A model generated the notes under the pieces. The model worked only from the letters and a program-made list of their open reading frames with translations, did no database searches and was not told the origin of the DNA. The translations under genes and the position numbers were made by a program. Positions 10,661 to 32,163 of a stretch of 64,000 bases of DNA are shown here, piece after piece; the stretch's first letter is position 1, and each line of letters opens with the position of its first letter. Source of the DNA: Calditrichota bacterium (GTDB taxonomy: Bacteria > Caldisericota > Caldisericia > UBA6126); the NCBI GenBank assembly GCA_036725105.1, contig DAIMET010000002.1:5534-69533 (forward strand), given 5' to 3'.

Positions 10661-10689
10661 TTGTGTTTTCTTAGTAATCAAGGTATCAT
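10661..10689 (+). promoter_or_regulatory. Candidate promoter for parA-parB
   Basis: TTGTGT (10661-10666), 17-nt spacer, TATCAT (10684-10689), 35 nt upstream of ATG 10724. Confidence 0.3.
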
Positions 10690-10723
10690 CAAGGGAAACA
10701 AATCAAGAATATTGAGGATATAT

Positions 10724-11482: not shown

Positions 11483-12314
11483 ACGTATAGGTGGTCTTGG
11501 TAAAGGACTTGGGGCATTATTAGATGATTATAAAGATGACACAGCAACGGCGATCCGGGAAGTTCAAATAGAGTTGATTAAAAAATCCCCTTATCAGCCA
11601 CGGGTATTTATTGATCCAAATTCTATAATTGAATTAGCACAATCGATCAAAGAAAATGGTTTAATTGAACCTTTAGTAGTACGATTTGTCCATTCGTATT
11701 ACGAATTGATTGCTGGACATAGAAGGTTAGAAGCTCTTAGGTCTTGCGGTTATACAAAGGTTCCTGTGTATGTTTTGGATATTTCTGATCGTCAAGCTGC
11801 TCAGTTAACCATCGTAGAAAACATTCAACGGGAAGACTTAAACCCCCTTGATTTAGCTTCTAGCCTACAAACTCTAATTCAAGAATTTTCAATCACACAC
11901 GAAGAGTGTGCTTCTTCTATCGGAAAAAGCAGGGTATATGTTACAAATTCTCTTCGCCTCCTACAACTCGATGAAGAATCAAAAAAAGCACTACAGGAAA
12001 ATAAGATACAAGAGGGCCATGCAAGATTACTTCTTTCAATCAAAGAAATTGAAAATCGGCAGCGGGTGCTTTCTTATTTAATAGAAAAAAAGCTCACTGT
12101 TAAAGAACTTTCACATTATATTCTGAAAACCTGTGGAAAAAAGAAACAAAAGATTGTTCGTTTTCCACATTACAAAGAGCAAGAAAAAGTATTACGGGAA
12201 TTCCTGCACAAACCGGTGAAAGTTTTCCACAACCAAATTACTATCAAGTTTAAAGATGAGAAGGAGTTGCAGGAAATCTTTAAACATTTTCAACTCCCCT
12301 ATAAGTATGATTAA
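11475..12314 (+). CDS. parB: Chromosome partitioning protein ParB/Spo0J
   Basis: GLGKGLGALL N-terminus and ParB box IEPLVVR..YELIAGHRRLEA. Overlaps the parA stop. Confidence 0.9.
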   Translation: MNKRIGGLGKGLGALLDDYKDDTATAIREVQIELIKKSPYQPRVFIDPNSIIELAQSIKENGLIEPLVVRFVHSYYELIAGHRRLEALRSCGYTKVPVYVLDISDRQAAQLTIVENIQREDLNPLDLASSLQTLIQEFSITHEECASSIGKSRVYVTNSLRLLQLDEESKKALQENKIQEGHARLLLSIKEIENRQRVLSYLIEKKLTVKELSHYILKTCGKKKQKIVRFPHYKEQEKVLREFLHKPVKVFHNQITIKFKDEKELQEIFKHFQLPYKYD

Positions 12315-12346
12315 AATTTTAATATATATTAAAACCAATAAAGACG

Positions 12347-13705: not shown

Positions 13706-13958
13706 AAAAAATCCTTTGCAAGTATAAAAAATTTATGTATCGTTGATGTAAGTTATTGTACTGGAAATCCTTCGTTTATAAAGACAACTTAAGGCTTTTA
13801 AAAAAGTGTGAAACGAGAAAATTTGAGAAAAAAAGCAACTAAACGAAAGAAAACATGGAAATCGCAATTTGTTGTTATATAATTTATCCAATTGATGAAA
13901 TAACTTAATGACGTTGAAAGCTACGAGGTTATTGTATGTTTTGGATTGCTTCCATAAT

Positions 13959-13986
13959 TTGATTTTATGGTAGTCTATGGTATTTT
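13959..13986 (+). promoter_or_regulatory. Candidate extended -10 promoter for the giant-gene pair
   Basis: TTGATT (13959-13964), 16-nt spacer, TGgTATTTT (13978-13986), ~115 nt upstream of ATG 14106. Confidence 0.3.
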
Positions 13987-14105
13987 TGACATACTTTGTG
14001 TTGTACGTTTTTTCCCTATTCGCGGAAGGGTAGAGGAAGCTGATAAAATCAGGCTTCTTCCGGTCAGAAAACCCTTAACAGCGAAGATGAGAAAGGAGAA
14101 CTGAG

Positions 14106-17100
14106 ATGAAAAAGATATTCGCTTGGTTAGTCATCTCTTTTATGGCTGTTGCTCTGCTACAGAATCCTTTTAACAATGCTGTGAATATTACTACAGCTAA
14201 TGAAGAATTAAACAAAGCTACCTTTATTGCAGTTAGGCTTGTTCCTGCCCGGTTCAATAGAGATGGGCAGCAACTTGAAGGTAAGCTATTTCCCTGGCAG
14301 CGATCTGGAGAAACTGTTTGGGGGCGAGAGGGCTATGGTATGCCCAATTCTTTATTAGCTATAGAGAATGAAAACAATATACCAGCACTCTTACCAAACA
14401 CACAAGCAGAACCTCTATTCTGGGCCAAGTTCTATCTCGATGTTATCGCTGATGGTGGTAAATCTCGATTTAAAGAACCTTGGTACGTGGTGTATGATAA
14501 TTGTGGTCAATTTTGGTTAGATCCAGACGGGTATTTCAACGATTCTCGTTATTTCGAACCTGCAGACCCTTCTAACCTAAATGGAAAATACCAAACCAAC
14601 CTGTGTACGAACAATCCCAACGCCCTGGTTGATCCATCTACGGGAAACAACACACAAGGACCATACATCCTGGACCCCGATAACCCTCGTTTTGATATGT
14701 TCCACGGACCAACATTCATCGACCAAGACGGAAACACATGTATTTATTTTTGGGACCGAAACAACACAATGAGATATTTCCGAATGGGCTGGATTGATAT
14801 GGTTGATTTTCCTCTAGAAAGAGGAGAGGGTTCTGTCCCCCCCATTCGACCATCTGTTGTACAGGGTGAAAATTACGTCTCGACCAAGTATATTGGAACT
14901 ATGGATTGGGACGCTCAACAAGCATACTCTTTACTCGAATTCCGATATTGGGGATTACCTGGTAGTACAGGGTTTAATTTCGATGATGACCCTGTTGTAC
15001 AACCCGACTATACTCTCGAACCCAATAAGTCTTTCCGCTGGTATTACAACAGCGACATGGACGATTTGCAATCCAAGCGCGCTCTTACTGGCGACGAACT
15101 CCATGCAGATAATGTTTCAGATGAGGCACAAAACAAAACTGCCTCTATCACCGTAAACTACCCACCATTTTCTATGCCAGAACAGCTCCATCGCTTTTAC
15201 ACACAGATATCCGACTTCGATCCTGGAGAACACATTTACCGCAAAGGCGAATATGCAAATACATTTCCAACCTACTCCTTCTTTGTTCAAGAAGGGGATT
15301 ATCGTTTAACTCCCGTATCTGTATATTTCAACGGAGAAACCCGAAACTATCCCCCAAACAGTAAAGTTTTACCTGGTGATTGGGATTGCGCATATGACCG
15401 CAATGGTGACCCCGTTAACCAAGCCGTTCCCTCTCATTACAAATCTTTATTCCGTTTCCGTACCAATTTTGCCGAATACAACGTCGACGAAGGTACTAAC
15501 GGAGGAGAGCGAATCCGTAAAGAAGATGACGAACTCCACGTTGACAACACAAAAACTCCTGCAGATTCTAAGTGGCACGAAGCATGGTATTCTTACGAAC
15601 ACAAAGAGTGGATATATAGAGATCGAGGAACCGACCCACAAACGTACGGACGTGTTACTGTTGGAGACTATCGTTTAACCAACGTAAATGGCCCCGTATT
15701 TGCTGGATTGAAAAAAGACCGTAACCGCGGTCTTGTGAGTTCTGATGTTCAACTTATGGTTAGTAAAGCATTGAAAGAAACATCTACACCATACGTCCCT
15801 CGTGTACGCGGGGATGCACTGGTATTAGCTGAAGTTATATTTGGTGGCGGAAACAATTCTCTTTACAACCTTTCCATCGAAAGTGATATATGGCAAGGTG
15901 AGATTCCTGATTTCACAGCTGCATCAATACGTTCCCAGAGTGGGAGCTTTTTACCAACTGCACAATCTATGCAACGTAACACCGTCCTAGATGATGATGG
16001 ACGTACATTTGATATTTCTGCAACCACCTTCCAAGATGTTGATGTTCGATATCGCGAATACTTGGGTCTTGAAATGTGGAAGGATGACGGTATTGACAAT
16101 AACACTGGAGAAAACTTTGTCGATAATCCTCCTCCACCCATCGATACACTTTTCCCATATAACCTTTCCGACGACTATCGACCTGGTAGAACAGGTGAAG
16201 AGTTTTTAGGCTGTTCCAACGACATTGTTGCTGACAAAGATTACGGTCGAATGTTATCTCCATTTCCTTTCGATATCATGTACCATGATACCACCGCTCT
16301 TGATGCCTCAGATCCTATTGGCAACCCCTACTCATACGGATGCGGTGAAGCAATTTATAAAAATAAAATCATTCAACCTGGAGCTCTCCAGGTTGTTGAT
16401 CCTGGCGACGAAAGAATTACCGAAGTTACTGTTACAGTTGGCGAAAATGTAATCACATACCCAGCCAACACCACCGTTGTTGATGGTGATTCTGACGTTG
16501 GCTTGTCTCTCTTCAACTTCGATTACGACGAAATGTTTTTTGATCAAGAATGGCCAGAAAAATGTATTGAGAAAAACTATACATATGATACCGGAGAAGG
16601 TATTTATCTGACAGAATCTAAAGTTCCTCGCGATGCTCCACTCTACACCCTCATATCTCAAACTGAAATTGATAACTACTTTTTCTGGGGAGAAATCCCA
16701 TTTGAAACCGTCCTCTATTTTGACCATGATTGGGATCCAGTGGTAAATCCTGTTCACACCATAACCCCAGGGGACGTCCGTGTTCTGGATCTATCGGGGC
16801 AATATGAACCCGGATCCATTGTTAGTTCCAACATGCTCATTGATATGGACTTGTACTATGACATGGATCCAACTCCAGCCCATATCCGAGTATATCAAGA
16901 CCCCATTTTCCCTGCTTCACATGTCGGTGGATATGTTGATGTGGATGAATCCGGATTTGTAAGCACGGGTGATATACGGTTGTATCCGATTTTTGGATAT
17001 CAACCTTATACTGTAGTTGAAGATGGCGATCGAGATAATTCTGACGACCCTCTTAACGAACTCCCACTTATCGCAGAAGACCTTACTTGGTATGGTTATA

Positions 17101-20100
17101 TCAGGCAGTATCAATTACTTCTAAGCGTCCCAGATTTTACCCCTTTCCGTGAAATTCGAATCACTCCTCTGATCATTGATCAGTTCCACACCACCAGACT
17201 TACGAGTATTGTACTTGACAGTACTACCTATGACTGTGGATCTCAAGTGGGCGGAAACAAAAACTATTGGGTAAACGAAAATGTCATTCATGGTTTATCT
17301 GTTGGTAAGAATTGTGATTTCCGTTATATCGACTGGGAAGTATTCCCTTCAGATCGTCTGGGAATGGAATTATCGATCGAACCAGAAATTAAAGTTGAAC
17401 AAACCACGCAAATTCAAATTACCGTTGATCCCCCCCCAAAACCAGAGTATTGGGAAAATGGTGTGTTTCATCCTGCTGAAAAAGTATTTGTTTATATTGT
17501 AAACACCCAAGAGTATATCGGCATTGATTTTAATGAAGACTATCGCGTCATAACTGCCGATGATCCTAAAGCTGTTTTTGAATTCACACCCTACCAGGGA
17601 TCTTGTACCCCAACTGGTTATCACAAAGGTTGGCAGCGAGTATGGAATAGCCAAGAATACCGCTACGAATTGGTTTCTTTTGACAATAACATGAGAATTA
17701 TTGCTGTAAAAGATTGTGGGGGAGTTACGGACCCAACCCCTGGACAATATACAATTTACGATCCATTCTGGAAGATGCACGACAATACCCTGAATTATGC
17801 CGGTAAAACCCGTGGTGATGAAATTTGGTCACCACCAACCTTTCCTACCTACTGTAGAGACTATTCTTGTTTTCCATATCCAAATACCAGCATATTAAAA
17901 AATAGATTCGATACTTACTCACAAGTTTCAATTCCAATTCTTCCCGAAGACATCGACATGCTTCCCTCTAAAAAATGCTTAAGCATTTTAGATCAAAAAT
18001 TTCCAAACCTTTCTGTTAAACTTCGTGATGCAGACAACCTCAAAGATATTAATGATCCCAACGGTCAAACTATCTCTGTTCCTGATGGTCATGAAATAAT
18101 AGCCTTCTATAATGCCTCTGGAGCTGGAATTCAATTCATGTTCACCGGACGCATTAGTGAAAGCCTTGCTGGCAAAGTTTATGGACTCCATTCTATAGGA
18201 GCCACTGAATATGATATTGAAGAAGACCAGCTCATTATTGGTCAATACAACGATGACGAGTCATTGTTTATATGGATGTGGAACGACTGTGGACCAAACC
18301 TGGGAATCCTCGATGAAGGCGATTTTCTTTGGGCTCCCAATCCTTTCTATGATCCAGATACTCCATCCACCGGACCTTCTATATTACCTGGATACCTAAA
18401 AGTAAACATTAGCAGCAACGAACAGATAAAATTCACAGATACTGACTGCTCACAAGGTACAAACAACTGTATTTCATGTGGAGATGGTATGTTTGATGAT
18501 CTTGGTACAGTCACCTATGGAGATACATTTGGTCCTCTCGAGCCGGGTATTCCTCCATTAATTACTGTAGCCACCTATGGCGTTCCTTCTCTGCTTAGAA
18601 ATTATGGACAAGCTCCGTATCCTTCTACAAATGAAGGAGGAGAACTTCCTGTCACTGTTCTTCCTAGAAATGCCTTAACGAAGCTTGCCCTTAAGGTTGA
18701 AACATACAATGTAATTTTCGATTACAATTCAGAAATCAAGCACCCACCCTATTTTGTCCAAACCAATCCAGATCATTCCATAGGTAATTTTGTTGATGAA
18801 ACCTATCTTGATTGGCAAAGACCTAGTTCTGGATTACAACGATTCAACCATTTTGGTACAGACTATTGCGGAGTTCACTTTTTCAAAGTTTTAGCACCCG
18901 ATCCATACGTCAATTTTGTTGAATTCAATACAATTGACCACGCACTTCAAAATTCCCAAGTGGACTATACTGCTGGATTAAATTCTTTATCTCCACTACC
19001 AGTTCCTTCTCCCCAAATTCAAGCACCTTACAACCCTATGGTAATTGATGTTGCCAAAGATTTACGAGCATACCCAGGTGGACAAACTCACACCGGTCGT
19101 GTTGCTGGTGCTGTTAAAAATGGTGGATACTACCGATCCGATGACTATCATAGCGGTTGGAATGCCTATCCCGCTGTTTGGTGGTGGTATTGGTATGGAG
19201 AGGATGTTAATTACAATCAATTCGTCGATTTTAACAAACTAGGAACTGAGTTTTTCCCTCTAACCGATTATGGTACCTTTTTTATCTTGAAAGATATTGA
19301 TGGAAACCACTTAAGTTTCAGCGAGGAAACAGAACCCGATTACCGTATTAGAAAAATAGAATTATCTGGTCCTATAGCAAGACCAAAAATTTTCGATCCC
19401 GTCAAGCAGACAATAAGTTCTGAATATCGCTATAACAATCTTCGTCATGTTCCCATTGTTTATGATTGGGAAAACAGTATTGTGATTGACAGTTCCAACT
19501 ATGCAGAGTTTGAAATGTCCTGGGATAATAAATACTACGGTAGAAAAGAAGACTATCCTCTAAATGTAAATGGAACGTATTCCAACCGTGAAGTATTTGA
19601 TTGGACTAGCACACGATCTGATGGAACTAAGTATCAGTATACGAATCCACTGCTTTTAGGTGGTGGACAACTCGATTTTAGAGGACTCAACAACGTATTT
19701 CGTATTGACGAATTTGTCCCCATTGCAAATGGATTGATACAAATCAAAGTAACTTTGTATGACGGTACGGTGAAAGTATATCAAGATTGTTGCGCGGAAC
19801 CTCCAACAGATGGTATCGAAGTACATGCACTAACAGTTGAATCAGATATTGAAGAACTATATGCAGACCAAGACAACAAAATTGAGGTAAAAGTAACCGA
19901 ACATACAACATTCCAAGAAGAAATGTTGGTAAATGATGCATTGGTTTACATCTGGCAAGACCGCGGTGTGATTGGCGATGTTGATGGTATGTATGAGGGA
20001 GCTGGTGATGGATGGGTAGGAAATCCTCCTCATTCCAGTAAATATACTGAGCTTGCCCCCCAATACCTAGAAGATGAAGATTTTAACAAAGATGGCAAAA

Positions 20101-23015
20101 TCTCCTTCAAAGAATATGAGACCGAGATTATTGGTTCCTATGACCTTGCCACCAATACCTGGACAGGTGGTGTGATAGACGGTAGAACTTTCCAAAGAGG
20201 AGATGGTGTTTACACGTTCACCATGTCTGTCGAAAACGGTTGCCAAATTGACACCGTTGGTATCGACTTTGGTGGATTAAACAATGAACCTGACCATCTA
20301 ATCTCTGACTATGAAAAACTTCCCGTTATGGTAACCGCTTATAAATATGGTGACGACAATACAGATCGTTCCTTTGAACCGCTGTATAACTATGGAGGAA
20401 CTACTCCACAATTCTCACACGAAGTATATTTAGCAGGCCAGAAGTTTTTACCTGTTGAACCCATTATTGATCTGACTGCTTCTGTTCAACCAAGTCCGTT
20501 AACAGCCGGTGTAACGCCAGAACTTGTCGATCCTGTTTCACCCCTATCTTTTGTCTTAACCGACGAAGAAGGTACACCAGTCGATCTTTCAATAGGTATT
20601 CCTGACAAAGAAGGCAAATACGCTATTGATGACGATGATGTTTGGAATCACTTGTTCCGTGATGTTCACCCTGATCCTCTACCAGATTATTACTGGCTTC
20701 GAACAGACCTTCATAATAATGACGGTACTCGTGAGAATAATCACCAACTCTATTCTGTTTCTGCTTCTGCACCATTTAGTCCAATTGATATTGATTTCAA
20801 CCTAAAGACAGATGGTAAGTATTCTTTCCGAGGTTTCTGTGCCAACGATGAAGGAGAATTTGATGTATTTATCTATACTCCTGATCGTAAGCATGCTGCC
20901 AAGGTAAATGTAAAAGTAGTACTACCAACGGTTGAATATGAAGTAACCAATATTGATGATCCAGCTGGAACATCATATTCTGTACCGGGTAACCCCGATT
21001 TTGTATTAACCGCAGCTGACAATAGAATCTATCGAATCACAATTACTGCAAAGAACGCACAAGGTCTCTTATTGAAAGGTGTAAGCAAAGGCGTTAGCAC
21101 TTGTGGCGGAGGTATTAAAAATACTGCTCGCTTCACTCCTTATACAACACGACCAGAGTCATTTGACTTTAATGAAAGAGATCGAAATCTCTTTGCAGAA
21201 CACTTCATGCAAGACTTATATCCGTACACAATCCACCTTGGATTCGACTTCAACGACAACAAGCAAGTCGACAATAGAAATTCTGAATTATGCCTACCTG
21301 GAACATTCTATCAATCACCTAAACCAGGTGCTGATCAACAAGAGATTGGTAAAGTTTACTACAATACAACTCTCGTCCGATTTGACGAACAAAGTATTCA
21401 TGGTGGATGGGATGTTACTCCAAATCCTAACCTAACACCACCTACGGTTGGTTGGGGTCTTGGTGCTATTTACAATAGCGCTCACAAAGGCGGCTACTTG
21501 TTTGCCGATATTGATCCAAACGAAAAGCTTGACTACCACGATTCCCTAGGTTTGGATGTCAATGCACAAACCACCTTCTATGTCTTCGCAGAAGATATAT
21601 GCTATATCGGCGGATTAGTAGGCGACAATGTGTATTGTAATAATCCATCTCAAGCTGATCTTTGTGGATATCCTCCAAAGTATAAAACTGATCCTGCACA
21701 CACTATTTCACGATTTGATCCCGGTAGAACCAATGACAATACATTCTTCCTCGATTGGGAAGCTTTCCCCAGCCACGAAGTTCACATTGCACCTCCACGC
21801 CTGACCGTACTTTCTGCTCTCACCCGTGTTGAACTTGGACAAGATCTCCTGAATGCTGCCAATTACGATTTAACCTATGCCATTGAAAACAACATGATTG
21901 TGCAAGTACGACCTGCCGACTCTCGTGATCTTCCTATGCACGAAGATGGCCGGGTCTTCTTGTTTGGTAATCAACACCAAACTGCCATTTACGGCGATAC
22001 TACTGCTTCCCCTACAGATCCATCTGTCATGGAAACCACTCTCTTCTTCACCCCCACCGGCGTTGGCGAACAAATTGCCTCTCTGGGATACTTCAATCCC
22101 AACCACCACTATCATGTTGAACCATACCAATTTGACAACACCTCTACATATACTCTCCGTGACCTTCTCCACTTTGATTCCATTGTTGGATTACAAGTGG
22201 AAGTTGCTTCTGTTCCTTCTCTGAATCCCAATGTCACTTCTGAGCTTACCATTTCGGTTTCAGAAATCGGAACCAATGCACCCGTTGAAGGTGCAAAAGT
22301 AACCATTGAAGGACCTGGTATCAATACGACCGGTACCACCAATGAGCAAGGCGTTTTGAACACAAAAGTCACTCCCAACAAAAAAGGAATTGTAACCATT
22401 CACGTTACCAATACCAACATGATGGAAGGCCATACAGAAGTATGGGTCAAACCAGACACAACTGAACCTATTCTAGAATTGGATCCCGTGGCCTCTATTA
22501 CTAACAAAGCCACCCTGGAAGTGACCGGAATGACCAATCCTGGCAATGAAGTAACAGTCAACAATGAACCTGCTACCGTTTCACAAAATGGGACCTTCTC
22601 CATTCGTGTTACGTTGGAAGAAGGACTCAATACAATTATCGCTACTGCCACCACCCCCACCGGAAAGACTGTACGCCGTATGCTCACTATTACCCTTGAT
22701 ACGACCCCTCCCATGATTTTTGTTGATGATCCAGGGGCACTCCAGGGATCAGAACCCTTCACCTATACCCTTACAGGCCGTGTAGAACCAGACTGTAAAG
22801 TGACTGTCAACAACCAAGACGCAACTGTAACCCATGACATATGGTCCATTGATGTGACCATCAAACCAGGGAAAAATGCTTTTGTCATTACAGCCACTGA
22901 TGTTGCAGGTAATGTCAATACGATGAATTTTGAAGTGATTGTACAAGAAATTGAAAAGCAGAATTCTTTTGTATACCAACACCCTGTTAGTGTTCGGTAT
23001 GAAGGAATTTTGTAA
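14106..23015 (+). CDS. Giant secreted protein, 2,969 aa, unknown family (paralogue 1); C-terminal Ig-like beta-sandwich modules
   Basis: Uninterrupted 8.9 kb ORF. AAGGAG lies 7 nt before the ATG. The N-terminus is hydrophobic (MKKIFAWLVISFMAVALL). It aligns along its full length with the next ORF. The last ~250 aa (VEGAKVTIEGPGINTTGTTNEQGVL.., DTTEPILELDP.., DTTPPMIFVDDP..) look like Big/CarboxypepD_reg-type modules. Confidence 0.8.
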   Translation: MKKIFAWLVISFMAVALLQNPFNNAVNITTANEELNKATFIAVRLVPARFNRDGQQLEGKLFPWQRSGETVWGREGYGMPNSLLAIENENNIPALLPNTQAEPLFWAKFYLDVIADGGKSRFKEPWYVVYDNCGQFWLDPDGYFNDSRYFEPADPSNLNGKYQTNLCTNNPNALVDPSTGNNTQGPYILDPDNPRFDMFHGPTFIDQDGNTCIYFWDRNNTMRYFRMGWIDMVDFPLERGEGSVPPIRPSVVQGENYVSTKYIGTMDWDAQQAYSLLEFRYWGLPGSTGFNFDDDPVVQPDYTLEPNKSFRWYYNSDMDDLQSKRALTGDELHADNVSDEAQNKTASITVNYPPFSMPEQLHRFYTQISDFDPGEHIYRKGEYANTFPTYSFFVQEGDYRLTPVSVYFNGETRNYPPNSKVLPGDWDCAYDRNGDPVNQAVPSHYKSLFRFRTNFAEYNVDEGTNGGERIRKEDDELHVDNTKTPADSKWHEAWYSYEHKEWIYRDRGTDPQTYGRVTVGDYRLTNVNGPVFAGLKKDRNRGLVSSDVQLMVSKALKETSTPYVPRVRGDALVLAEVIFGGGNNSLYNLSIESDIWQGEIPDFTAASIRSQSGSFLPTAQSMQRNTVLDDDGRTFDISATTFQDVDVRYREYLGLEMWKDDGIDNNTGENFVDNPPPPIDTLFPYNLSDDYRPGRTGEEFLGCSNDIVADKDYGRMLSPFPFDIMYHDTTALDASDPIGNPYSYGCGEAIYKNKIIQPGALQVVDPGDERITEVTVTVGENVITYPANTTVVDGDSDVGLSLFNFDYDEMFFDQEWPEKCIEKNYTYDTGEGIYLTESKVPRDAPLYTLISQTEIDNYFFWGEIPFETVLYFDHDWDPVVNPVHTITPGDVRVLDLSGQYEPGSIVSSNMLIDMDLYYDMDPTPAHIRVYQDPIFPASHVGGYVDVDESGFVSTGDIRLYPIFGYQPYTVVEDGDRDNSDDPLNELPLIAEDLTWYGYIRQYQLLLSVPDFTPFREIRITPLIIDQFHTTRLTSIVLDSTTYDCGSQVGGNKNYWVNENVIHGLSVGKNCDFRYIDWEVFPSDRLGMELSIEPEIKVEQTTQIQITVDPPPKPEYWENGVFHPAEKVFVYIVNTQEYIGIDFNEDYRVITADDPKAVFEFTPYQGSCTPTGYHKGWQRVWNSQEYRYELVSFDNNMRIIAVKDCGGVTDPTPGQYTIYDPFWKMHDNTLNYAGKTRGDEIWSPPTFPTYCRDYSCFPYPNTSILKNRFDTYSQVSIPILPEDIDMLPSKKCLSILDQKFPNLSVKLRDADNLKDINDPNGQTISVPDGHEIIAFYNASGAGIQFMFTGRISESLAGKVYGLHSIGATEYDIEEDQLIIGQYNDDESLFIWMWNDCGPNLGILDEGDFLWAPNPFYDPDTPSTGPSILPGYLKVNISSNEQIKFTDTDCSQGTNNCISCGDGMFDDLGTVTYGDTFGPLEPGIPPLITVATYGVPSLLRNYGQAPYPSTNEGGELPVTVLPRNALTKLALKVETYNVIFDYNSEIKHPPYFVQTNPDHSIGNFVDETYLDWQRPSSGLQRFNHFGTDYCGVHFFKVLAPDPYVNFVEFNTIDHALQNSQVDYTAGLNSLSPLPVPSPQIQAPYNPMVIDVAKDLRAYPGGQTHTGRVAGAVKNGGYYRSDDYHSGWNAYPAVWWWYWYGEDVNYNQFVDFNKLGTEFFPLTDYGTFFILKDIDGNHLSFSEETEPDYRIRKIELSGPIARPKIFDPVKQTISSEYRYNNLRHVPIVYDWENSIVIDSSNYAEFEMSWDNKYYGRKEDYPLNVNGTYSNREVFDWTSTRSDGTKYQYTNPLLLGGGQLDFRGLNNVFRIDEFVPIANGLIQIKVTLYDGTVKVYQDCCAEPPTDGIEVHALTVESDIEELYADQDNKIEVKVTEHTTFQEEMLVNDALVYIWQDRGVIGDVDGMYEGAGDGWVGNPPHSSKYTELAPQYLEDEDFNKDGKISFKEYETEIIGSYDLATNTWTGGVIDGRTFQRGDGVYTFTMSVENGCQIDTVGIDFGGLNNEPDHLISDYEKLPVMVTAYKYGDDNTDRSFEPLYNYGGTTPQFSHEVYLAGQKFLPVEPIIDLTASVQPSPLTAGVTPELVDPVSPLSFVLTDEEGTPVDLSIGIPDKEGKYAIDDDDVWNHLFRDVHPDPLPDYYWLRTDLHNNDGTRENNHQLYSVSASAPFSPIDIDFNLKTDGKYSFRGFCANDEGEFDVFIYTPDRKHAAKVNVKVVLPTVEYEVTNIDDPAGTSYSVPGNPDFVLTAADNRIYRITITAKNAQGLLLKGVSKGVSTCGGGIKNTARFTPYTTRPESFDFNERDRNLFAEHFMQDLYPYTIHLGFDFNDNKQVDNRNSELCLPGTFYQSPKPGADQQEIGKVYYNTTLVRFDEQSIHGGWDVTPNPNLTPPTVGWGLGAIYNSAHKGGYLFADIDPNEKLDYHDSLGLDVNAQTTFYVFAEDICYIGGLVGDNVYCNNPSQADLCGYPPKYKTDPAHTISRFDPGRTNDNTFFLDWEAFPSHEVHIAPPRLTVLSALTRVELGQDLLNAANYDLTYAIENNMIVQVRPADSRDLPMHEDGRVFLFGNQHQTAIYGDTTASPTDPSVMETTLFFTPTGVGEQIASLGYFNPNHHYHVEPYQFDNTSTYTLRDLLHFDSIVGLQVEVASVPSLNPNVTSELTISVSEIGTNAPVEGAKVTIEGPGINTTGTTNEQGVLNTKVTPNKKGIVTIHVTNTNMMEGHTEVWVKPDTTEPILELDPVASITNKATLEVTGMTNPGNEVTVNNEPATVSQNGTFSIRVTLEEGLNTIIATATTPTGKTVRRMLTITLDTTPPMIFVDDPGALQGSEPFTYTLTGRVEPDCKVTVNNQDATVTHDIWSIDVTIKPGKNAFVITATDVAGNVNTMNFEVIVQEIEKQNSFVYQHPVSVRYEGIL
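21453..22942 (+). repeat. Direct repeat copy A (3' end of giant gene 1), ~1.49 kb
   Basis: Matches 30606-32095 at a constant offset of 9,153 nt. I found two mismatches by eye (21494, 21521) and none from 21522 onward. Confidence 0.9.
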
Positions 23016-23072
23016 TAGTTTGTTATGCAAAACGATAGACAACAAACGATGGTTTTTGAAAGGAGAATTGGT

Positions 23073-26000
23073 ATGAAGAAGTTAACAAGTGGGCTGATAG
23101 CACTTCTTATGTTTGCCAGTATTCTTCAAGTCGGTTTTTATTCTGTTCCTGCAAAAGCTGCTGAATCCCAAAATGCAGTTTTTATAGCTTCTAGATTTAT
23201 TCCTGTAGGCTTTGAAAGGGATGGTACGGCTTTGGATCCAGGCATAGACTTTCCGTGGCAGAAACCTGGTGAAATGTGTTGGGGGGGAGATGAATATGGT
23301 ATGCCAGATACAGAACTAGCTGTATTGGCACATTATATTTATTCTGAAGAACCTCTAGGACTTACACCAGAACCTGTGTCCGAAAGTTACAAAAAAGGAC
23401 CCAATGAATATGCATTTGGCGATATTAATATCCCCGCTAGACCTGATCAACCTCATTTTGATGAATTAGGCAATCAACTCTACGACCAAGAAGGATTTCC
23501 AATTACCACAAATACTACTGTTCAGCCGTTGTTATGGACAGAGTTTTATTTAATGGTAGATCCAGCCAGTGGTAAATCACAAGAATACAATCGCTGGTAT
23601 GCAGTTTATGACTCTGCTGGTCAATTGTGGTTTGACAAAGATGGATATTTTAACGATTGCCGGTATTATGAATTTGCCGATCCATCCAATCTATATGACA
23701 CATATGAAGTGCAGTTTGATCCTGAAAAGAATGACTTAGAAAAGTTTTTATCTGCATTTCAAGAAAACAATACATGTCGAAACAATAAAAATGCCATTGT
23801 GGATCCAATTGGAAGCAATAACACACAAGGTCCTTATTTCTTAGATCCAGATCATCCAATGTACCGCGGTGATATGGATGCAGGTGGCATAACCAGAAAT
23901 TACTTCTGGGACCGAGAAGGAACTGGACGTTATTTCCGCATTGGCTGGATTGACATGCCAGATTTTCCTATACTTATTGATGAATTTGGCGTACGATCTC
24001 CTACATCTGTCGTAGGAAATCTATCTACCCACGGCGAAACCAAGAAAGCCGATTGGGACGGAGCTGCCCAGTATCCTTTATACGATTTTTCTTATTGGGG
24101 ATTACCCTCCGATTTTGCCGATTCAATGGGATTACCTCGCAGTGTTAGCTGCGAAGGTGTTGAACAAGTAGATTCAAATGCACAACCATATGACGACTAC
24201 ACTTGGTATTACACCTCCGACCCTAATGATGACGAGAGCATGTATGTAAACGTATATGATGAATTACATGCAGACAATATCAATGCTTCTGGTAACAGAA
24301 TTAAACCCGATCCTGTTGATGATGGCATTGATTATTACGCCAATGTATCTGCATATCATCCTGGTGAATGGATATATCGGAAAGGTGTTGATACTAGTAC
24401 ATTGCCACCTACGCCTAACAACGATTATACCGTGCAAGTTGGAGACTTCCGTCTAACACCTGTTGCTGTCCGCATGGATGACGGGAAAACATATTATAAA
24501 TATGCAGCCAATACTACCGTCAAAGAAGGCGACAAAGACGTTGATATCAGCTTATGGCGCTTTGTTGCAAATTTCGCAGAAACAGGTATGTTTGCTGGAG
24601 AACGTACCGGTAAGGCTAATGACGAAATGCATACCGAGAATATCAATTCATCTAGATCAACTACATGGGGTATGGATTTTGATTGGACACTGTATGAATA
24701 CGGCGAATGGATTTACAAAGAAGCTGGAACAACTGGATTTGGGGTTGTTTCTTATGGCGATTTCAGACTATCTAATGTAAACAATCTAATCAATCCAATC
24801 ACGAACGCAAAATACCTGAAACGTGGATATGTAAATGCTACCATGATTCCTGTTCCTGCATATCCCGGTAGTCTCACAAAAGTCCCAAGAATCTATGGCG
24901 ACGTATTATTGCTCGGAGAAGTTTTACATGGTGGTTGTAATGAGCCCACATACAATCTATCTGTTCAAACAGATGTATGGTCTGGCATTATGCCTAGTGT
25001 TACATCTGCTGCCCTTCGATCTCCGAATAAAGACATTCAGGGAGCTGTACAATCAGTTCAAAAGAATACAGTACTCGACCCTACTGGTGAAGAATTTTTC
25101 GTTCCTGCCACTACTTTCCAAAACATCAATTTAAAATACAGAGAATACATTGGTGTTGAAATTTTCAAGGACAACGGTGTATCAAACGATATCTGTGATT
25201 TAGATGAAACACTTACTAGAGCAGAGCGATACAACTTATTCCCATACAATCTTTCTGATGATCAAGAAGAAGGTATTGCTTGCGAAGAGTATCTCGGTGC
25301 TGAAGATTCTATTATTACTTCTCGAGACATTGGTAGAGTACTGACACCCTTCCCAAGCGATGTTATGTATTATGAAGGTTCTCAAAATCCAATCTACGGA
25401 TGCCAAGAGCCTATTTATAAAAATAAAAATAAAGTCGATGACGGTTTGGGTAATCAAATTGTGAACGAAGGCGACATTCGCCTCACCGATCGTATGATTA
25501 CTAGAAGTAACCTTGTTACTGAATACAAGGCTGGTTCAGAAGTTTCAGAAGGCGATCTAGATGTCGGCGATATCTTGTTTCATTTCTCAAAATTGGACAT
25601 GTTCTACGATCAGGACTGGCCCAATGAAAAGATTTTCAAAAATGGTACATACGATATTGGCGAAGACATTTATCACCTTGGTAACATGGAAATTGATCAA
25701 AAACAATTCTTACCTGTCAATCATCAATTTTACATGGGATTAACAACTGGTTCTGGTACAGAACGATATTTTGATACAGTTTTGTATTATGATGCTGATG
25801 GAGATGGCAAAGCAAGTCCTGGGGATATTCGAGTTTTTGACCTTTCAGGTCGTTTCCCCAATGGATCTATTTTAACCGTACACGATGCTGATTGTCCTAC
25901 CTCTCTATCTAGCTGGGACAACTATGATACCCTCCTATACTATCCCATGGATGGCTTAGTAGATATTTTCACTCTTGCTGAAGACTACGATGTAAGCCGA

Positions 26001-29000
26001 CCAGGAGCTACAATTCCCGACTACAAATCTCTCTATGTGGATATGGATAATAGCTATGATCCGCTCGATCCTACCCCTGAAAAAACATGGTTGACTCCTA
26101 ATGACGTTCGATTAACATGGAGCTATATATATGCTCCCTTTACCGTAGTCCAACCTGAAGATTTTGATTATGAACACTACATTATTCCCGAAAGCCCTCT
26201 TGGCTTGGGTGCTTGCGATGCAAACCTTCGCCTGTGGGATCGCGTCGATCACAACGTTCTAATATCCGATCCAGAAAATGACGATGAAATACTATACGAT
26301 GCTGTTTGGGGTATCGGTGTATTATCTGCTCCCGATCCATCTGTGTACTTAGATGACATTATTGTCATGATCAAGACCAAAAAAGACAACACACGCATGA
26401 CCGATATTCAAATTGAAGATAATACCTATCTTTGCGGTTCTCTTATCGGTGAAAAAATACATTATTGGTGGAATCAAAATATTGTTCATGGTTTTACAGT
26501 TGGAAAAAACGGTGACTCCCGTTTCATTGACTGGGAAGTCTTCCCTTCCGATAAACTTGGAATGGAAGTTCACGTCACCGAAGAACTAAAAGTTGAACAA
26601 ACCTCTACATTAAAGATTACCGTAGAACCACCACCTAGACCAGGTTATTGGGATGACAATGTGTACATTCCCCAAGAAGAAGTATATGTGTTTGTAAAAG
26701 ATGTTGTTACTGGGAGAAATATATTCATTGATGAAGATTACCGCGTGTTAGACGGTGATCATCAAATGACTTCCTTCGAGATCACTCCATACCGTGGATC
26801 TTGCTCTGTTGATGGAAACTACAAAGGTTTCAAAAGATTGTATGAAGAAGGACGATACGTATTAGAAGATTTTGATAATCGCTTGCGAATTGTCGCCATA
26901 CGAAATACCGGTGGTATTGATGATAGCGTTCCACCAGAGGTTTCTTTGTATGATCCTTTCTGGAAACAACACGATAATAGGTCTTATTTCAACGGCCAAA
27001 ATGAACTTGGACGACTTATTGGACATGCCTATGGGTGTAAACCTCAATCCACACCTCCTTGGAACGACAATATTCCCCCTCTATTCCACACCAGTTATGA
27101 TTGTTTTACGGACATGGCATATGTAGTGGGATCCGAGGATATGCGTTTTACTGCTAATAAAAAATGCGTTGGTGTTTTGGATCAAAAATTCCCCAATTTA
27201 TTTATCAATCTCATTGACAAAGATAACAAAAATGATGTGAATGATCCAGCTGATCTTCCCATATCTACTATAGCAGGAAGAGAAGTAGTAGCTTTTTATA
27301 ACGCAAATGGTGCAGGCATTGATTATATGTTTACCGGGTATATGGTAGAGCCACTTGACTCTTCTATAGCTCGTGTGTATAACAATGACGACATGGGCGT
27401 TAATGATCCTTACTACGATGATCTAGCTTACTCTGAAAAAGTAATTGTACAAGTGAATGAAGATGGTACATTCTGTTACTGGCATTGGGACGATGTCGGA
27501 CCTCACAAGGGCATTCTAGACCCCGGCGACGATCTATGGGTACCAAATCCAAATTATATTGGACCGCTCCCAGTTGGTGGCGACAAGTATGATATTGCCT
27601 ATATGGAACGAATACCTGGTTATATTCAAACCGTTAACAGCCCACAAGTGTTTGACAGTGATTGCTCCGAAGGTAAATATCAATGTCACAATTGTGGTGG
27701 CAGTGATTTCCGAAATGATGGTCTGGTATCTTACGGTGATAAATATGGTCCATTCAAAGTTGCTACTTTTGGTGTACCTGTTTATCTTCGAAACCATGGG
27801 GATACAAACTATTCCTCATCTGATAGCGGTGGTGTGATTCCTGTAACAGTTATTCCCCGTTCTGCTGCTACCAAACTCCAAGTACAAGTAAAAACTTTTA
27901 ACCTTATATTTGATTACAACTCTGAAATTCAACATCCACCTTATTTTATTGAAGATGGCATTGTATGTCCTCCTGGAATGTTCCACGACGAAGTTTTCTT
28001 TGATATTATTGGAAATCCCGGAGGAGGTTTGCGTCGTTATGAATCCATGGGAGTTGACTATTGTGGTGTTAAGTCCTTCAAAGTCTTAGCTCCTGATCCA
28101 TATGTTAACTTTGCTGAAATGGCAATGGTTGACCATGCATTACAAAATTCAGAAGTGAATTACACATCTGGAACCATGGATAATCAACCAATATCTAATC
28201 TTCCCTTACCTACACCTCAGATTCAATCTCCCTACAATCCAATTGTCCAAGACGTAGGAAGAGACTGCAAAGGATATCCTGGCGGCCAGACACACACTGG
28301 TAGATTACGCGGTGGAGTTATTTCCAGCGGATATACCCGAACTACTGAAGACCATTCCGGATGGAATGCATATCCAGCCATATGGTGGTGGAAATGGTAT
28401 GATGATGTTGACATTAACAATTTTACTGATTTCAATAAATTGGGTACAGAATTCTTCCCTCTAACCGATTATGGAATATACTTCATCGTCAAAGATATTA
28501 ATGGAAACCATCTCAGTTTTGACGAAAAAACCGATCAAGATTTCCGTATTCGACGTATGGAAATTACTGGGCCATTTGCTCAACCAAAAATATTCAACCA
28601 GGTGAAGCATACTGTTACACCAGAATACGAATATAACAATGTTCGCAATGTACCTATTAACTACGACTGGTCTGGAAAGATTGTTGTTGAGCACTCCAAT
28701 ATGCAAGATTACGAGTATGATTACGGATATGATTGGACAGATAAAAACGGTGATTGGGATATTTCTCAACCCGATAACGAGCTAACAAAATATCCTAATG
28801 AAAATGCTCAATTACGCGATGGAGGACAACTTGACTTCCGAGGACTTACCAATGTCTTCCGTTTTGAAGAAATAATCCCTATTTCTCATGGAATCATAAA
28901 CATTAAAGTTATTCTATGGGACGGAACAGTAAAAATTTACCAAGATTGTTGTGCTGAACCTCCAACCGATGGTATTGATGCACATGCATTGGAAATTGTT

Positions 29001-32000
29001 ACTGAATCGGATCATGTTGTTGCAGATGTTGACAACAAAGTAGTTGCAACCATTAAAGAATACGAAATGATGCAAAGCACTGAAATGTGTAATGATGCCT
29101 TCGTATTTGTATGGCAAGATCGCGGTGTTGCCACCAAAAACAGCAAATTATTCAATGGTGCAGGTGATGGTTGGGTTACCAATCCTCCCAGAAATACTGT
29201 AACTACCGAATTAAAAGAACAATATGACTGGGAAGAAGATTTAAATAATGACGGCAAGATTTCCTTCCGTGATTATGAAACTGAAATTATCGGTACATAC
29301 GATATGGCTACCAATACTTGGGCTGGTGGATTGATTGATGCTCGAACCTTCCAACGAAACAATGGACTATATGAGTTTGATCTGTCTGCTTCCAACGGTG
29401 CGCTGGTTAATACAATCGGTATTGATTTTGGTGGTCCAAACGATGAACCTGATCACGTCATCAGTGAAAATGAAACCCTTCCTATTATGATTACAGCATA
29501 CAAGTATGGAGATGACGACAACGATCGTGCTTTCACTCCGCTCTATGGATTGCCAGGAACACCTCCTCAATATTCCCATGAAGTATATCTTTCTGGGCAA
29601 AAATTCCTAACCATTGAACCTGTATTTGACCTGTCTGTATCCGTTCAACCTAACCCCTTGACAGCTGGTGTAACCCCTGAACTTGTCGATCCTGTTTCAC
29701 CTCTTTCTTTTGTACTTACTGACCAAGAAGGCAATCCTGTTGACCTATCTGTTGGTGTTTTAGACATGAAGGGCAATCGTGAAGTATTAGATGACCATAT
29801 TTGGAATTTCTTATTCAAGGATATTCACCCTGATCCACTTCCAGAATATTATTGGCTGCGAACCGACCTTCACAACGATGACGAAACTCGCATATCCAAC
29901 CGATACCTATACTCTACTTCTTCTGCTGCCTTCCAACCTATCAAGATTGATTTCAGCCTTGCAAAAGACGGTAAATATGCTTTCCGAGGTTTCTGTGCCA
30001 ACGATGAAGGAGAATTTGATGTAATCATTTACACTCCTGACCGCAAGCATGCTGCCAAAGCACAAGTGAATGTTGTATTGCCGACTGTTGAATATAGTAT
30101 TGCAAATGCAGAAGACCCTGGTTTAACCACCTACATGGTACCTGGTGAACCAGATTTTGTGTTAACCGCAGCCGACAATAGAATCTATCGGATCACGATT
30201 ACTGCAAAGAATGCACAAGGTCTCTTGTTGAAAGGTGTAAGCAAAGGCGTCAGCACTTGTGGTGGTGGTATTAAAAATACTGCTCGCTTTACTCCTTACA
30301 TGACTAGACCAGCATCTTTTGATTTTGACGAAAAAGATCGCAAACTTTTTGCAGAACACTTCCTGCAAGACTTGTATCCCTACATTCCTCATCTTGGTTT
30401 TGACTTCAATGACAATGCTAAGATTGACCGTACAGCTTCCGAACTATGCCAAGCTGGTGGATTTGTTCATACCAAAAACCGCAACGATCAAGTCACACTT
30501 GGACATGTGTATTACAATACAACTCTCGTCCGATTTGATGAACAAAGCATTTATGGTGGATGGGATATCGAACCAAACCGCGGTTTAGTTCCCCCTGTAA
30601 AAGGGTGGGGTCTTGGTGCTATTTACAATAGCGCTCACAAAGGCGGTTACTTGTTTGCCGATATTGATCCAAATGAAAAGCTTGACTACCACGATTCCCT
30701 AGGTTTGGATGTCAATGCACAAACCACCTTCTATGTCTTCGCAGAAGATATATGCTATATCGGCGGATTAGTAGGCGACAATGTGTATTGTAATAATCCA
30801 TCTCAAGCTGATCTTTGTGGATATCCTCCAAAGTATAAAACTGATCCTGCACACACTATTTCACGATTTGATCCCGGTAGAACCAATGACAATACATTCT
30901 TCCTCGATTGGGAAGCTTTCCCCAGCCACGAAGTTCACATTGCACCTCCACGCCTGACCGTACTTTCTGCTCTCACCCGTGTTGAACTTGGACAAGATCT
31001 CCTGAATGCTGCCAATTACGATTTAACCTATGCCATTGAAAACAACATGATTGTGCAAGTACGACCTGCCGACTCTCGTGATCTTCCTATGCACGAAGAT
31101 GGCCGGGTCTTCTTGTTTGGTAATCAACACCAAACTGCCATTTACGGCGATACTACTGCTTCCCCTACAGATCCATCTGTCATGGAAACCACTCTCTTCT
31201 TCACCCCCACCGGCGTTGGCGAACAAATTGCCTCTCTGGGATACTTCAATCCCAACCACCACTATCATGTTGAACCATACCAATTTGACAACACCTCTAC
31301 ATATACTCTCCGTGACCTTCTCCACTTTGATTCCATTGTTGGATTACAAGTGGAAGTTGCTTCTGTTCCTTCTCTGAATCCCAATGTCACTTCTGAGCTT
31401 ACCATTTCGGTTTCAGAAATCGGAACCAATGCACCCGTTGAAGGTGCAAAAGTAACCATTGAAGGACCTGGTATCAATACGACCGGTACCACCAATGAGC
31501 AAGGCGTTTTGAACACAAAAGTCACTCCCAACAAAAAAGGAATTGTAACCATTCACGTTACCAATACCAACATGATGGAAGGCCATACAGAAGTATGGGT
31601 CAAACCAGACACAACTGAACCTATTCTAGAATTGGATCCCGTGGCCTCTATTACTAACAAAGCCACCCTGGAAGTGACCGGAATGACCAATCCTGGCAAT
31701 GAAGTAACAGTCAACAATGAACCTGCTACCGTTTCACAAAATGGGACCTTCTCCATTCGTGTTACGTTGGAAGAAGGACTCAATACAATTATCGCTACTG
31801 CCACCACCCCCACCGGAAAGACTGTACGCCGTATGCTCACTATTACCCTTGATACGACCCCTCCCATGATTTTTGTTGATGATCCAGGGGCACTCCAGGG
31901 ATCAGAACCCTTCACCTATACCCTTACAGGCCGTGTAGAACCAGACTGTAAAGTGACTGTCAACAACCAAGACGCAACTGTAACCCATGACATATGGTCC

Positions 32001-32124: not shown

Positions 32125-32163
32125 AAAAGCCCGAAAGCATGTGTATGCTTTCGGGCTTTTTTT
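32125..32163 (+). terminator. Rho-independent terminator after giant gene 2
   Basis: Perfect 16-bp stem AAAAGCCCGAAAGCAT / ATGCTTTCGGGCTTTT with loop GTGT, followed by a T-run. Confidence 0.8.

What the first reader, a model, noticed from the sequence alone, without database searches (positions are those of the whole stretch)
21453..22942. Last ~1.4-1.5 kb of the two giant genes are identical at DNA level: sharp gene-conversion step (or assembly collapse)
21453-22942 matches 30606-32095 at a constant offset of 9,153 nt. By eye there are two mismatches (21494 C/T, 21521 C/T) and none over the last 1,421 nt. The track confirms this independently: off-frame and antisense ORFs are duplicated letter for letter (21870-22172 = 31023-31325, 21898-22224 = 31051-31377, 22112-22399 = 31265-31552, 22400-22762 = 31553-31915). 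Just upstream, identical peptides are encoded with many synonymous differences, for example FVLTAADNRIYRITITAKNAQGLLLKG at ~21001 vs ~30160. The N-terminal halves are far more diverged and contain indels. Identity ends two codons before the stop of gene 2 (..NFEVIV|EE* vs ..NFEVIV|QEIEKQNSFVYQHPVSVRYEGIL*). Such a step indicates recent gene conversion homogenising the C-terminal Ig-like modules. It also creates a substrate for RecA-mediated deletion to a single hybrid gene.
Basis: seen in the sequence. Interest (0 to 1): 0.7.

Follow-up and report, generated by a model that had tools for sequence, protein, structure and literature searches.

The report
Co-evolving ends of twin giant genes
Two neighbouring 9-kb surface-protein genes of an uncultured Caldisericia bacterium keep their last ~1.5 kb identical by repeated copying between the genes, a well-known process, although the perfect identity in this assembly is probably partly an assembly artefact.

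Summary
Window 21453-22942 equals 30606-32095 at offset 9,153, with two mismatches. Synonymous divergence (dS) between the two genes drops from saturated to 0.006 within 3 nt.

It is not one recent event. In at least five Caldisericia lineages whose orthologues differ at dS about 0.9-1.5, the two genes of one genome are 97-100% identical over the same tract. The left edge (21449-21452) and the right edge (stop codon of gene 2) are the same everywhere. This is long-term concerted evolution.

Two short gene-specific islands escape it: 21411-21452, and a ~140-nt patch at 21611-21749 / 30764-30902. Three JGI assemblies of this strain or a ~99% identical one carry the gene-2-type patch in gene 2. 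The window, which matches an ENA SPAdes-named contig, carries the gene-1 type in both genes. I put about 0.6 on assembler flattening and 0.4 on a very recent extra conversion.

The predicted hybrid-gene deletion exists. A MEGAHIT contig and a JGI contig show a precise 9,153-nt loss.

The proteins are orphan secreted giants ending in about four Ig-like domains. This is a new member of a known kind, closest to Helicobacter pylori babA/babB, and of modest interest.

The parts
14106..23015 (+). Giant gene 1 (2,969 aa). It has an N-terminal signal-peptide-like sequence and no Pfam domain over its first ~2,450 aa. Ig-like domains lie near the C-terminus, and a 23-aa gene-1-specific tail follows the shared tract.
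   Evidence: ORF list, translation, Pfam and NCBIfam
23025..32105 (+). Giant gene 2 (3,026-aa ORF). The likely real start is 23073, after a GGAG ribosome-binding site. It lies 57 nt after gene 1 with no terminator between them, so the two genes are probably one operon.
21453..22942 (+). Shared tract R, copy in gene 1 (1,490 nt).
   Evidence: Two mismatches to copy 2; dS 0.0057
30606..32095 (+). Shared tract R, copy in gene 2.
21411..21452 (+). Gene-specific island directly before the left edge. Gene 1 encodes VTPNPNLTPPTV and gene 2 encodes IEPNRGLVPPVK at 30564-30605. Each version is conserved among its own orthologues.
   Evidence: Protein alignment of 20 copies. dN between paralogues is 0.43-0.64; between orthologues it is 0-0.14 with saturated dS.
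21453..21610 (+). R1, a short homogenised tract (also 30606-30763). It is 97-99% identical within a genome in four lineages (the fourth, L026/L027, covers only its first ~90 nt) and 83% in the L009 lineage. Between lineages it is about 70-92% identical.
21611..21749 (+). Patch, X type, which is the gene-1 form (..KYKTDPAHTISRFDPGRTNDNTFF..). It normally escapes homogenisation.
30764..30902 (+). Patch position in gene 2. The window carries the X type here. Three JGI assemblies of this strain or a ~99% identical one, and all orthologous gene-2 copies, carry the Y type (..VYKTDPAHVESRFVPSQTPDGVFY..), which differs at 45 of 139 nt. This is probably assembler flattening, or else a very recent conversion.
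21750..22942 (+). R2, the main homogenised tract (also 30903-32095; 1,193 nt). It is 98-100% identical within every genome examined. It also contains the crossover interval of the 9,153-nt deletion.
22943..23015 (+). Gene-1-specific C-terminal tail (QEIEKQNSFVYQHPVSVRYEGIL*). Homology with gene 2 ends here because gene 2 stops.
32125..32163 (+). Hairpin followed by a T run (AAAAGCCCGAAAGC..GCTTTCGGGCTTTTTTT) 20 nt after the stop of gene 2. It is a likely operon terminator and is conserved in other lineages.
   Evidence: Sequence read; alignment

Best explanation
The two tandem giant genes are old paralogues whose 3' ends evolve in concert. Homologous recombination between the directly repeated 3' ends is inferred to be RecA-type; this was not tested. 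It repeatedly copies one gene's sequence onto the other within two tracts: R1 (~160 nt) and R2 (~1.2 kb).

The tracts stop at fixed places. On the right, homology simply ends at the stop codon of gene 2. On the left, and around the internal patch, they stop at short islands of gene-specific residues. The inference is that conversions overwriting these islands are removed by selection, and that the local ~35% divergence blocks heteroduplex extension.

The same repeats mediate a precise 9,153-nt crossover deletion. It leaves one hybrid gene: the gene-1 body, R, then the gene-2 stop and terminator.

The unbroken identity in this window, including the patch, most likely (~0.6) arises because the metagenome assembler projected the equal-length X/Y bubble onto one arm. 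That would be favoured if genomes carrying the deletion allele, which has X only, were mixed in the sample. Otherwise (~0.4) it is a genuine, very recent gene-1-to-gene-2 conversion across the patch.
For: Shown:
- Step in identity and dS.
- Concerted evolution. Within-genome paralogue dS in R2 is 0-0.056, while orthologue dS between lineages is 0.86-1.5. Upstream of the edge and in the patch the copies group by gene, not by genome (identity matrices; dN/dS).
- The dense gene-1/gene-2 mismatches end at 21449-21452 in every lineage, and the right edge is the gene-2 stop codon in every lineage.
- In strain L028 both R copies carry the same derived SNP, at 21902 and 31055.
- The islands have fixed gene-specific residues that are conserved among orthologues.
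- The Y patch sits in gene 2 on three JGI contigs of this strain or a ~99% identical one, including a 385-kb contig.
- A second case runs in the opposite direction. The SPAdes-named contig L011 has Y in both genes. Contigs L005/L007 are from the same strain (1 mismatch in 19,247 nt). They show X' in gene 1 plus three extra SNPs that L011 lacks.
- The two mismatches kept in the window are chained to the unique flank by gaps of 42 and 27 nt. The next true difference is 90 nt further on. This fits collapse at an assumed k of about 55.
- The metaSPAdes paper states that it masks strain differences, collapses larger bulges and projects them when resolving two-copy repeats (PMC5411777).
- Deletion allele. 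L032 (a k141 MEGAHIT-named contig) equals window[1..22942]+[32096..] exactly through the junction. L031 (JGI) is the same structure on the L028 strain background.
- Many MAG contigs break inside R, or close on themselves with a k-mer overlap, as expected for a genuine exact repeat.
Against: - No read-level data were available. The exact level of identity in R2 (100% versus a few SNPs) therefore cannot be trusted in any short-read assembly.
- The choice between artefact and real conversion for the patch is unresolved. Recombination in R is evidently active, so a real X/X genotype is plausible.
- The assembler that produced the window's own 95.7-kb source contig is unknown. Only the identical ENA contig has SPAdes-style naming.
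- Hybrid-gene contigs could in principle come from loop skipping. This is less likely for MEGAHIT, which by my own knowledge does not use read pairs.
- R1 is only ~160 nt and lies between two diverged islands, so homogenising it without converting the patch requires short conversion tracts. The L009 lineage shows R1 unhomogenised, so the process is not uniform.
- RecA dependence and selection on the islands are inferred, not shown.
Confidence: 0.8

Rival explanations
1. A single recent gene-conversion event copied about 1.49 kb from gene 1 onto gene 2 (or the reverse) in this strain. The step marks the end of that one tract.
For: Near-zero dS in the tract with a sharp step. The two surviving mismatches lie close to the left edge, as at a tract end. 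For the patch alone, a recent gene-1-to-gene-2 conversion remains possible.
Against: The same tract, with edges within 3 nt on the left and at the same stop codon on the right, is homogenised in lineages separated by dS about 1. One event cannot explain that. Three other assemblies of the same or a ~99% identical strain show the tract interrupted by the old Y patch.
Confidence: 0.1
2. The whole identity is an assembly collapse. The real 3' ends of the two genes differ substantially, and the assembler wrote one consensus twice.
For: All the data are short-read metagenome assemblies. One patch is demonstrably written differently in different assemblies. Assemblers flatten bubbles inside repeats (PMC5411777).
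Against: Where the copies really differ by more than about 15% (the patch, R1 in L009, everything upstream), assemblers with k of 55 to 141 keep them apart. R2 is nevertheless identical in every assembly of every lineage. Contigs break or loop exactly at R2, as they do at exact repeats. A diverged second R2 would appear as its own contig, and the scans of two collections found none.
Confidence: 0.05
3. There is no conversion. The tract is identical because of extreme purifying selection on the DNA or RNA, or because the 3' end was duplicated very recently in each lineage.
For: The tract encodes the most conserved part of the protein family.
Against: Between lineages the tract has dS 0.86-1.5, so synonymous sites are free to change. 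Independent recent duplications with identical end points in five lineages, each replacing the old 3' end, would amount to gene conversion in any case.
Confidence: 0.02

Closest known systems
Helicobacter pylori babA/babB (and homA/homB) adhesin paralogues, whose 3' segments evolve in concert by intragenomic gene conversion
   Same: The 5' and middle regions group by gene across strains, while the 3' segment groups by strain. Recombination between the paralogues gives chimeric genes and changes which surface protein is made (review PMC3960876, citing Pride and Blaser 2002). Here the upstream region and the patch group by gene, R1 and R2 group by genome, and hybrid genes are found.
   Different: The genes here are adjacent direct repeats rather than dispersed loci, so crossover deletes one whole gene. 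They are ~9 kb orphan genes in an uncultured, free-living anaerobe-type phylum. Two short gene-specific islands are preserved inside or next to the converted tract. No experimental rate or RecA dependence is known.
tufA/tufB concerted evolution in Salmonella and E. coli (own knowledge: Abdulkarim and Hughes 1996)
   Same: Duplicate genes are kept near-identical within a genome by recombination-dependent gene conversion over long evolutionary times.
   Different: The tuf genes are converted over their whole length and are functionally redundant. Here only the last sixth of each gene is converted, and the remainder is 35-60% identical in protein.
Giant Ig-like repeat adhesins (SiiE, MpIBP, Bap-like proteins, GhpA)
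   Same: A protein of about 3,000 aa with a signal-peptide-like N-terminus and a C-terminal string of about four beta-sandwich Ig-like domains. Foldseek matches to SiiE, the ice-binding adhesin and GhpA have E-values of 1e-7 to 1e-10. There is a weak Ca_tandemer hit.
   Different: The matches are generic to strings of Ig-like domains. The NCBIfam hit (25 bits) is below its cut-off (50 bits). The first ~2,450 aa match no family. No type I secretion signal or cell-wall anchor was identified.
Flattening of repeat variants by de Bruijn-graph metagenome assemblers (metaSPAdes bulge projection)
   Same: An equal-length 139-nt bubble flanked by exact repeats is written with one arm in both copies. 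The differences that survive are those chained to unique sequence within about k (PMC5411777).
   Different: This explains only the patch, and possibly isolated SNPs. It does not explain the within-genome identity of R1 and R2 relative to other lineages.

Membership tests
Concerted evolution by intragenomic gene conversion | In the tract, paralogues of one genome are more alike than orthologues of different genomes | tested here: met
   R2 is 98-100% identical within a genome and 66-95% between lineages. Within-genome dS is 0-0.056 and between-lineage dS is 0.86-1.5.
Concerted evolution by intragenomic gene conversion | Outside the tract, the copies group by gene (orthology) | tested here: met
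   In the 300 nt upstream, same-gene pairs are 71-94% identical and cross-gene pairs 61-71%. The patch groups as X versus Y.
Concerted evolution by intragenomic gene conversion | Abrupt change of synonymous divergence at the tract edge | tested here: met
   dS is 1.43 in the 88 codons before the edge and 0.0057 after it. The edge is located to within 3 nt.
Concerted evolution by intragenomic gene conversion | Dependence on homologous recombination (RecA) | not testable with these tools
   Inferred only from the exact-homology junction of the deletion allele.
Concerted evolution by intragenomic gene conversion | Recombinant (chimeric or deleted) alleles exist in populations | tested here: met
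   L031, L032 and L003 are hybrid single genes. L032 matches the predicted deletion product exactly through the junction. This is assembly-level evidence only.
Assembly artefact (collapsed or flattened repeat) | Independent assemblies of the same strain disagree inside the tract | tested here: met
   The window differs from L001, L028 and L030 at 45 of 139 nt in 30764-30902. L011 differs from L007 in the same way.
Assembly artefact (collapsed or flattened repeat) | Surviving differences lie only within about k of unique flanking sequence | tested here: met
   The gaps are 42 and 27 nt, followed by a 90-nt gap to the first flattened difference. The assembler's k was not known to me; 55 is assumed.
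Assembly artefact (collapsed or flattened repeat) | Reads from the sample contradict the contig | not testable with these tools
   There was no access to reads.
Assembly artefact (collapsed or flattened repeat) | The whole repeat is spurious: other assemblies show clearly different 3' ends | tested here: not met
   R2 is identical between the two genes in L001, L028, L009 and L011. Contigs break or loop at R2 in the other MAGs.
Diversity-generating retroelement (template/variable repeat pair) | Differences between the repeats are confined to adenines of the template, with a reverse transcriptase nearby | tested here: not met
   The 45 patch differences involve all four bases. Each patch type is conserved across lineages rather than hypervariable. 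No reverse transcriptase is among the ten neighbouring genes scanned.
Giant Ig-like repeat adhesins | A tandem array of Ig-like beta-sandwich domains in a very large secreted protein | tested here: met
   The model shows about four beta-sandwich domains with pLDDT above 85. There are also Glucodextran_B/Big_13 hits and Foldseek matches.
Giant Ig-like repeat adhesins | A recognised secretion or anchoring module, or a family-level sequence match above the curated cut-off | tested here: not met
   Ca_tandemer scores 25 bits against a cut-off of 50. Nothing else matches in Pfam, NCBIfam or PDB sequences.

The most novel reading that the evidence does not exclude
The locus is a selection-shaped recombination module. 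Two giant surface proteins share an obligatorily identical C-terminal stalk or anchor. About 60 residues of gene-specific determinants, held in two islands, are shielded from conversion across the class. The 1.2-kb repeat doubles as a reversible population-level switch between a two-protein and a one-hybrid-protein surface, for example under phage or grazing pressure. The converted tract alone shows raised GC3, which would be a clean natural example of GC-biased gene conversion in a bacterium.
Probability: 0.2. Interest if true: 0.55.

Novelty: new member of a known kind. Interest (0 to 1): 0.35.

Why it matters
The finding has four practical consequences.

- **MAG reliability.** It shows what can and cannot be believed in metagenome-assembled genomes at tandem paralogues. 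The homogenised tract is real. The "perfect" identity, and probably the loss of a conserved gene-specific patch, are not reliable. Single-gene versus two-gene contigs of the same strain also coexist in public data.
- **Biology of the locus.** It gives a well-delimited case of long-term concerted evolution with conserved tract borders and protected islands, in the almost unstudied phylum Caldisericota.
- **Functional pointer.** The roughly 60 residues in the two islands most likely distinguish the functions of the two giant proteins.
- **GC-biased gene conversion.** The tract-specific rise in GC3 is a small but controlled data point for the debate on GC-biased gene conversion in bacteria.

None of this overturns current understanding.

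Tried and rejected
- **Diversity-generating retroelement.** Rejected. The patch differences are not adenine-specific, each patch type is conserved, and no reverse transcriptase was seen among the neighbours.
- **Invertible or shufflon-type switching.** Rejected. There are no inverted repeats of at least 25 nt in 13700-32300.
- **A third copy inside the window as conversion donor.** None found. More distant paralogues (42-63% aa) lie elsewhere in the genomes and are not homogenised.
- **Naming the protein family.** Pfam, NCBIfam and PDB sequence searches gave only Ig-like hits (Glucodextran_B, Big_13) and a sub-threshold Ca_tandemer hit. The first ~2,450 aa are orphan.
- **Structure of the region holding the islands.** The AlphaFold model has pLDDT below 50 for its residues 1-214. 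The alignment was too shallow there, so I could not test whether the two islands are neighbours in 3D. The Foldseek matches are generic to Ig-like domain strings.
- **Promoter and terminator scan.** Matches were at or below the shuffled expectation and were not informative.
- **Translation of L006:248-1731.** It failed because that contig has frameshifts.
- **Provenance.** I could not establish whether the ENA and NCBI assemblies and the JGI assemblies derive from the same reads, or whether the 385-kb JGI contig comes from long reads.

Full report
**1. The observation**

At a constant offset of 9,153 nt, window 21453-22942 equals 30606-32095, apart from 21494 and 21521. The next differences are at 22943/22944.

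The tract lies at the 3' ends of two tandem ORFs: 14106-23015 (2,969 aa) and 23025-32105 (3,026 aa; the likely real start is 23073).

A codon alignment shows the following:
- The N-terminal parts are 35-60% identical in protein and contain indels.
- The 1.7 kb before the tract is 60-90% identical in protein.
- dS is 1.26-2.5 or not computable in most upstream segments. It is 0.66 in one 50-codon block at 21036-21185 and 1.43 in the last 88 codons before the tract.
- Inside the tract dS is 0.0057.

The 39 nt before the edge hold 23 mismatches.

**2. Where the sequence comes from**

Related contigs are titled Caldisericia or Caldisericota MAGs. Several titles point to anaerobic bioreactors or sludge digesters.

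The genes lie beside dnaA (12347-13705, minus strand) and parA/parB. A hairpin terminator follows gene 2, and none lies between the genes.

The proteins match no family except Ig-like domains near the C-terminus (Glucodextran_B, Big_13, and a sub-threshold Ca_tandemer hit). A model of the last 620 aa shows about four confident beta-sandwich domains that resemble strings of Ig-like domains in giant adhesins. The part holding the start of the tract is not modelled. Homologues are confined to Caldisericia.

**3. Other assemblies of the same strain**

| Contig | Source | Relation to the window | State of the locus |
|---|---|---|---|
| L002 (NODE_527) | ENA ERZ795057, SPAdes-style name | 100% identical to window 13025-39654 | two genes, X patch in both |
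| L001 | JGI 3300010350 | 49 differences in 28.9 kb; 45 lie in one in-frame 139-nt patch of gene 2 (30764-30902), with 17 synonymous and 12 non-synonymous codon changes | two genes, X in gene 1, Y in gene 2 |
| L028 | JGI, on a 385-kb contig | slightly different strain (~99% identical over 29 kb) | two genes, same gene-2 protein with the Y patch; its two R copies share a derived SNP at 21902/31055 |
| L030 | JGI | same gene-2 protein as L001 | gene 2 with the Y patch; the contig starts 195 nt upstream of gene 2, at the very end of gene 1 |

**4. Other lineages**

Scans of the metagenome and genome collections gave contigs from at least five further lineages. I compared the two genes within each genome, in window coordinates.

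- The dense differences between the genes stop at 21449-21452 in every lineage.
- R1 (21453-21610) is 97-99% identical within a genome in four lineages (one of them, L026/L027, is covered only for its first ~90 nt) and 83% in L009.
- The patch stays diverged (63-74% across genes).
- R2 (21750 to the gene-2 stop codon) is 98-100% identical within a genome.

Between lineages R1 and R2 are only 66-95% identical, and R2 has dS of 0.86-1.5.

Upstream of the edge and in the patch, the copies group by gene. Gene 1 encodes VTPNPNLTPPTV before the edge and ..KYKTDPAHVISRFDPGRTNDNTFF.. in the patch (X type). Gene 2 encodes IEPNRGLVPPVK and ..VYKTDPAHVESRFVPSQTPDGVFY.. (Y type). In these islands dN is 0.18-0.64 between paralogues but 0-0.14 between orthologues, despite saturated dS.

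This is long-term concerted evolution with conserved borders and two protected gene-specific islands. It is not a single recent event.

**5. Is the window's perfect identity real?**

The window has the X patch in both genes. A parallel case exists in another lineage.
- The SPAdes-named contig L011 has Y in both genes, with no mismatch over 1,491 nt.
- Contigs L005 and L007 come from the same strain (1 mismatch in 19,247 nt).
- They show X' in gene 1 plus three further SNPs that L011 lacks.

In both cases the differences that survive are chained to unique flanking sequence by gaps shorter than about 55 nt. The flattened differences lie beyond a longer gap.

metaSPAdes is described as masking strain differences, collapsing larger bulges, and projecting bulges while resolving two-copy repeats (PMC5411777). 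An equal-length 139-nt bubble between exact repeats is exactly such a bulge.

I therefore favour flattening (about 0.6). A genuine recent conversion across the patch (about 0.4) cannot be excluded without reads. The same caveat applies to isolated SNPs anywhere in R2 in any of these assemblies.

**6. The predicted deletion exists**

- L032 (ENA ERZ27257410, contig k141_283770, a MEGAHIT-style name) has no mismatch to window 4142-22942. It then continues with the gene-2 stop and downstream genes. It equals the predicted product window[1..22942]+[32096..] through the junction and for about 4 kb beyond.
- L031 (JGI 3300042281) has the same structure on the SNP background of L028.
- L003 is a hybrid with a crossover further upstream.
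- L006 and P0045 show the loop form: gene 2, then R, then the gene-1 tail.

By my own knowledge, MEGAHIT does not use read pairs to walk through repeats. A contig running flank-R-flank therefore suggests that the gene-2 branch was rare in that sample. I rate a real deletion polymorphism at about 0.7. Loop skipping remains possible for the other contigs.

**7. Mechanism**

Shown:
- the mosaic and its borders;
- its repetition in independent lineages;
- the recombinant alleles.

Inferred:
- RecA-type homologous recombination between the direct repeats gives non-reciprocal conversion within R1 and R2, and crossover deletion within R2.
- The borders persist because about 35% local divergence blocks heteroduplex extension, and because selection removes converts that overwrite the gene-specific residues.
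- The shared C-terminal module (a conserved ~250-aa region plus Ig-like domains) serves a function common to both proteins. The islands carry whatever distinguishes them.

**8. Comparison with known systems**

The closest known case is Helicobacter pylori babA/babB and homA/homB. There the 3' segments evolve in concert while the 5' parts diverge, and chimeric genes arise by intragenomic recombination (PMC3960876).

The differences here are the tandem arrangement, which allows whole-gene deletion, the gene size, the phylum, and the preserved islands. This is a new member of a known kind.

**9. Side observation**

GC3 is 0.39-0.44 in R2 in all lineages. It is 0.16-0.34 just upstream and about 0.28-0.33 in most other window genes sampled (one, 8351-9703, is 0.45). 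The unconverted third paralogues of the same MAGs show no such rise. This fits GC-biased gene conversion, but it is not proof.

**Verdict**

The 3' ends of the two genes evolve in concert over long times. The patch inside the tract is probably flattened by assembly in this window, and a deletion allele is documented in other assemblies. Interest 0.35.

Noticed in passing
window 21750-22942 and 30903-32095: Third-codon-position GC is raised in the homogenised tract: 0.41, against about 0.27-0.37 in the rest of both genes and 0.22-0.28 in the patch. The same holds in all lineages. The unconverted third paralogues of the same MAGs do not show it. This is a possible signature of GC-biased gene conversion.
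   Followed up: partly
window 5079-7968: A tmRNA gene (5079-5439, tag ANYTNYANNYAVA) is followed by a small island with an N6/N4 DNA methylase (5756-6865) and a RhuM-family gene (6862-7968). In strain L031 the RhuM gene is replaced by a DUF1016/YhcG gene, so the island varies between strains.
   Followed up: partly
window 35871-37232 (minus strand): A 453-aa ORF with no Pfam match is a hot spot of SNPs between otherwise near-identical strains (clusters at 36333-37080 in L028, L030 and L032).
   Followed up: no
window 12347-14105 and about 32000: dnaA and parA/parB lie directly upstream of the giant genes. The cumulative GC skew minimum in the window is near 32 kb rather than at dnaA. The 400-nt dnaA/gene-1 intergenic region was not examined for DnaA boxes.
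   Followed up: no
L012-L016, L025 (about 58-60% aa); L017 (63%); L018, L020, L022 (42-47%): The same MAGs carry more distant paralogues of the C-terminal module at other loci. Related database proteins carry a Cu_amine_oxidN1 'stalk' domain. These copies are not homogenised with genes 1 and 2. L020 has in-frame stops and may be a pseudogene or a poor contig.
   Followed up: partly
L006 (LZCG01000277.1), 1-9222: This contig closes on itself with a 99-nt terminal overlap, so it is a collapsed loop of R plus gene 2. It also carries several frameshifts that break gene 2 into pieces, so it should not be used as a gene model.
   Followed up: partly
P0043-P0046 (JGI fragments, another lineage): The patch is itself mosaic. 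The first residues are X-like (YCNNPS) and the rest Y-like (VYKTDPAHVESRFVPSQTPDGVFF). In L023/L024 the patch starts at 21644. The core that is always gene-specific is therefore about 21644-21749.
   Followed up: partly
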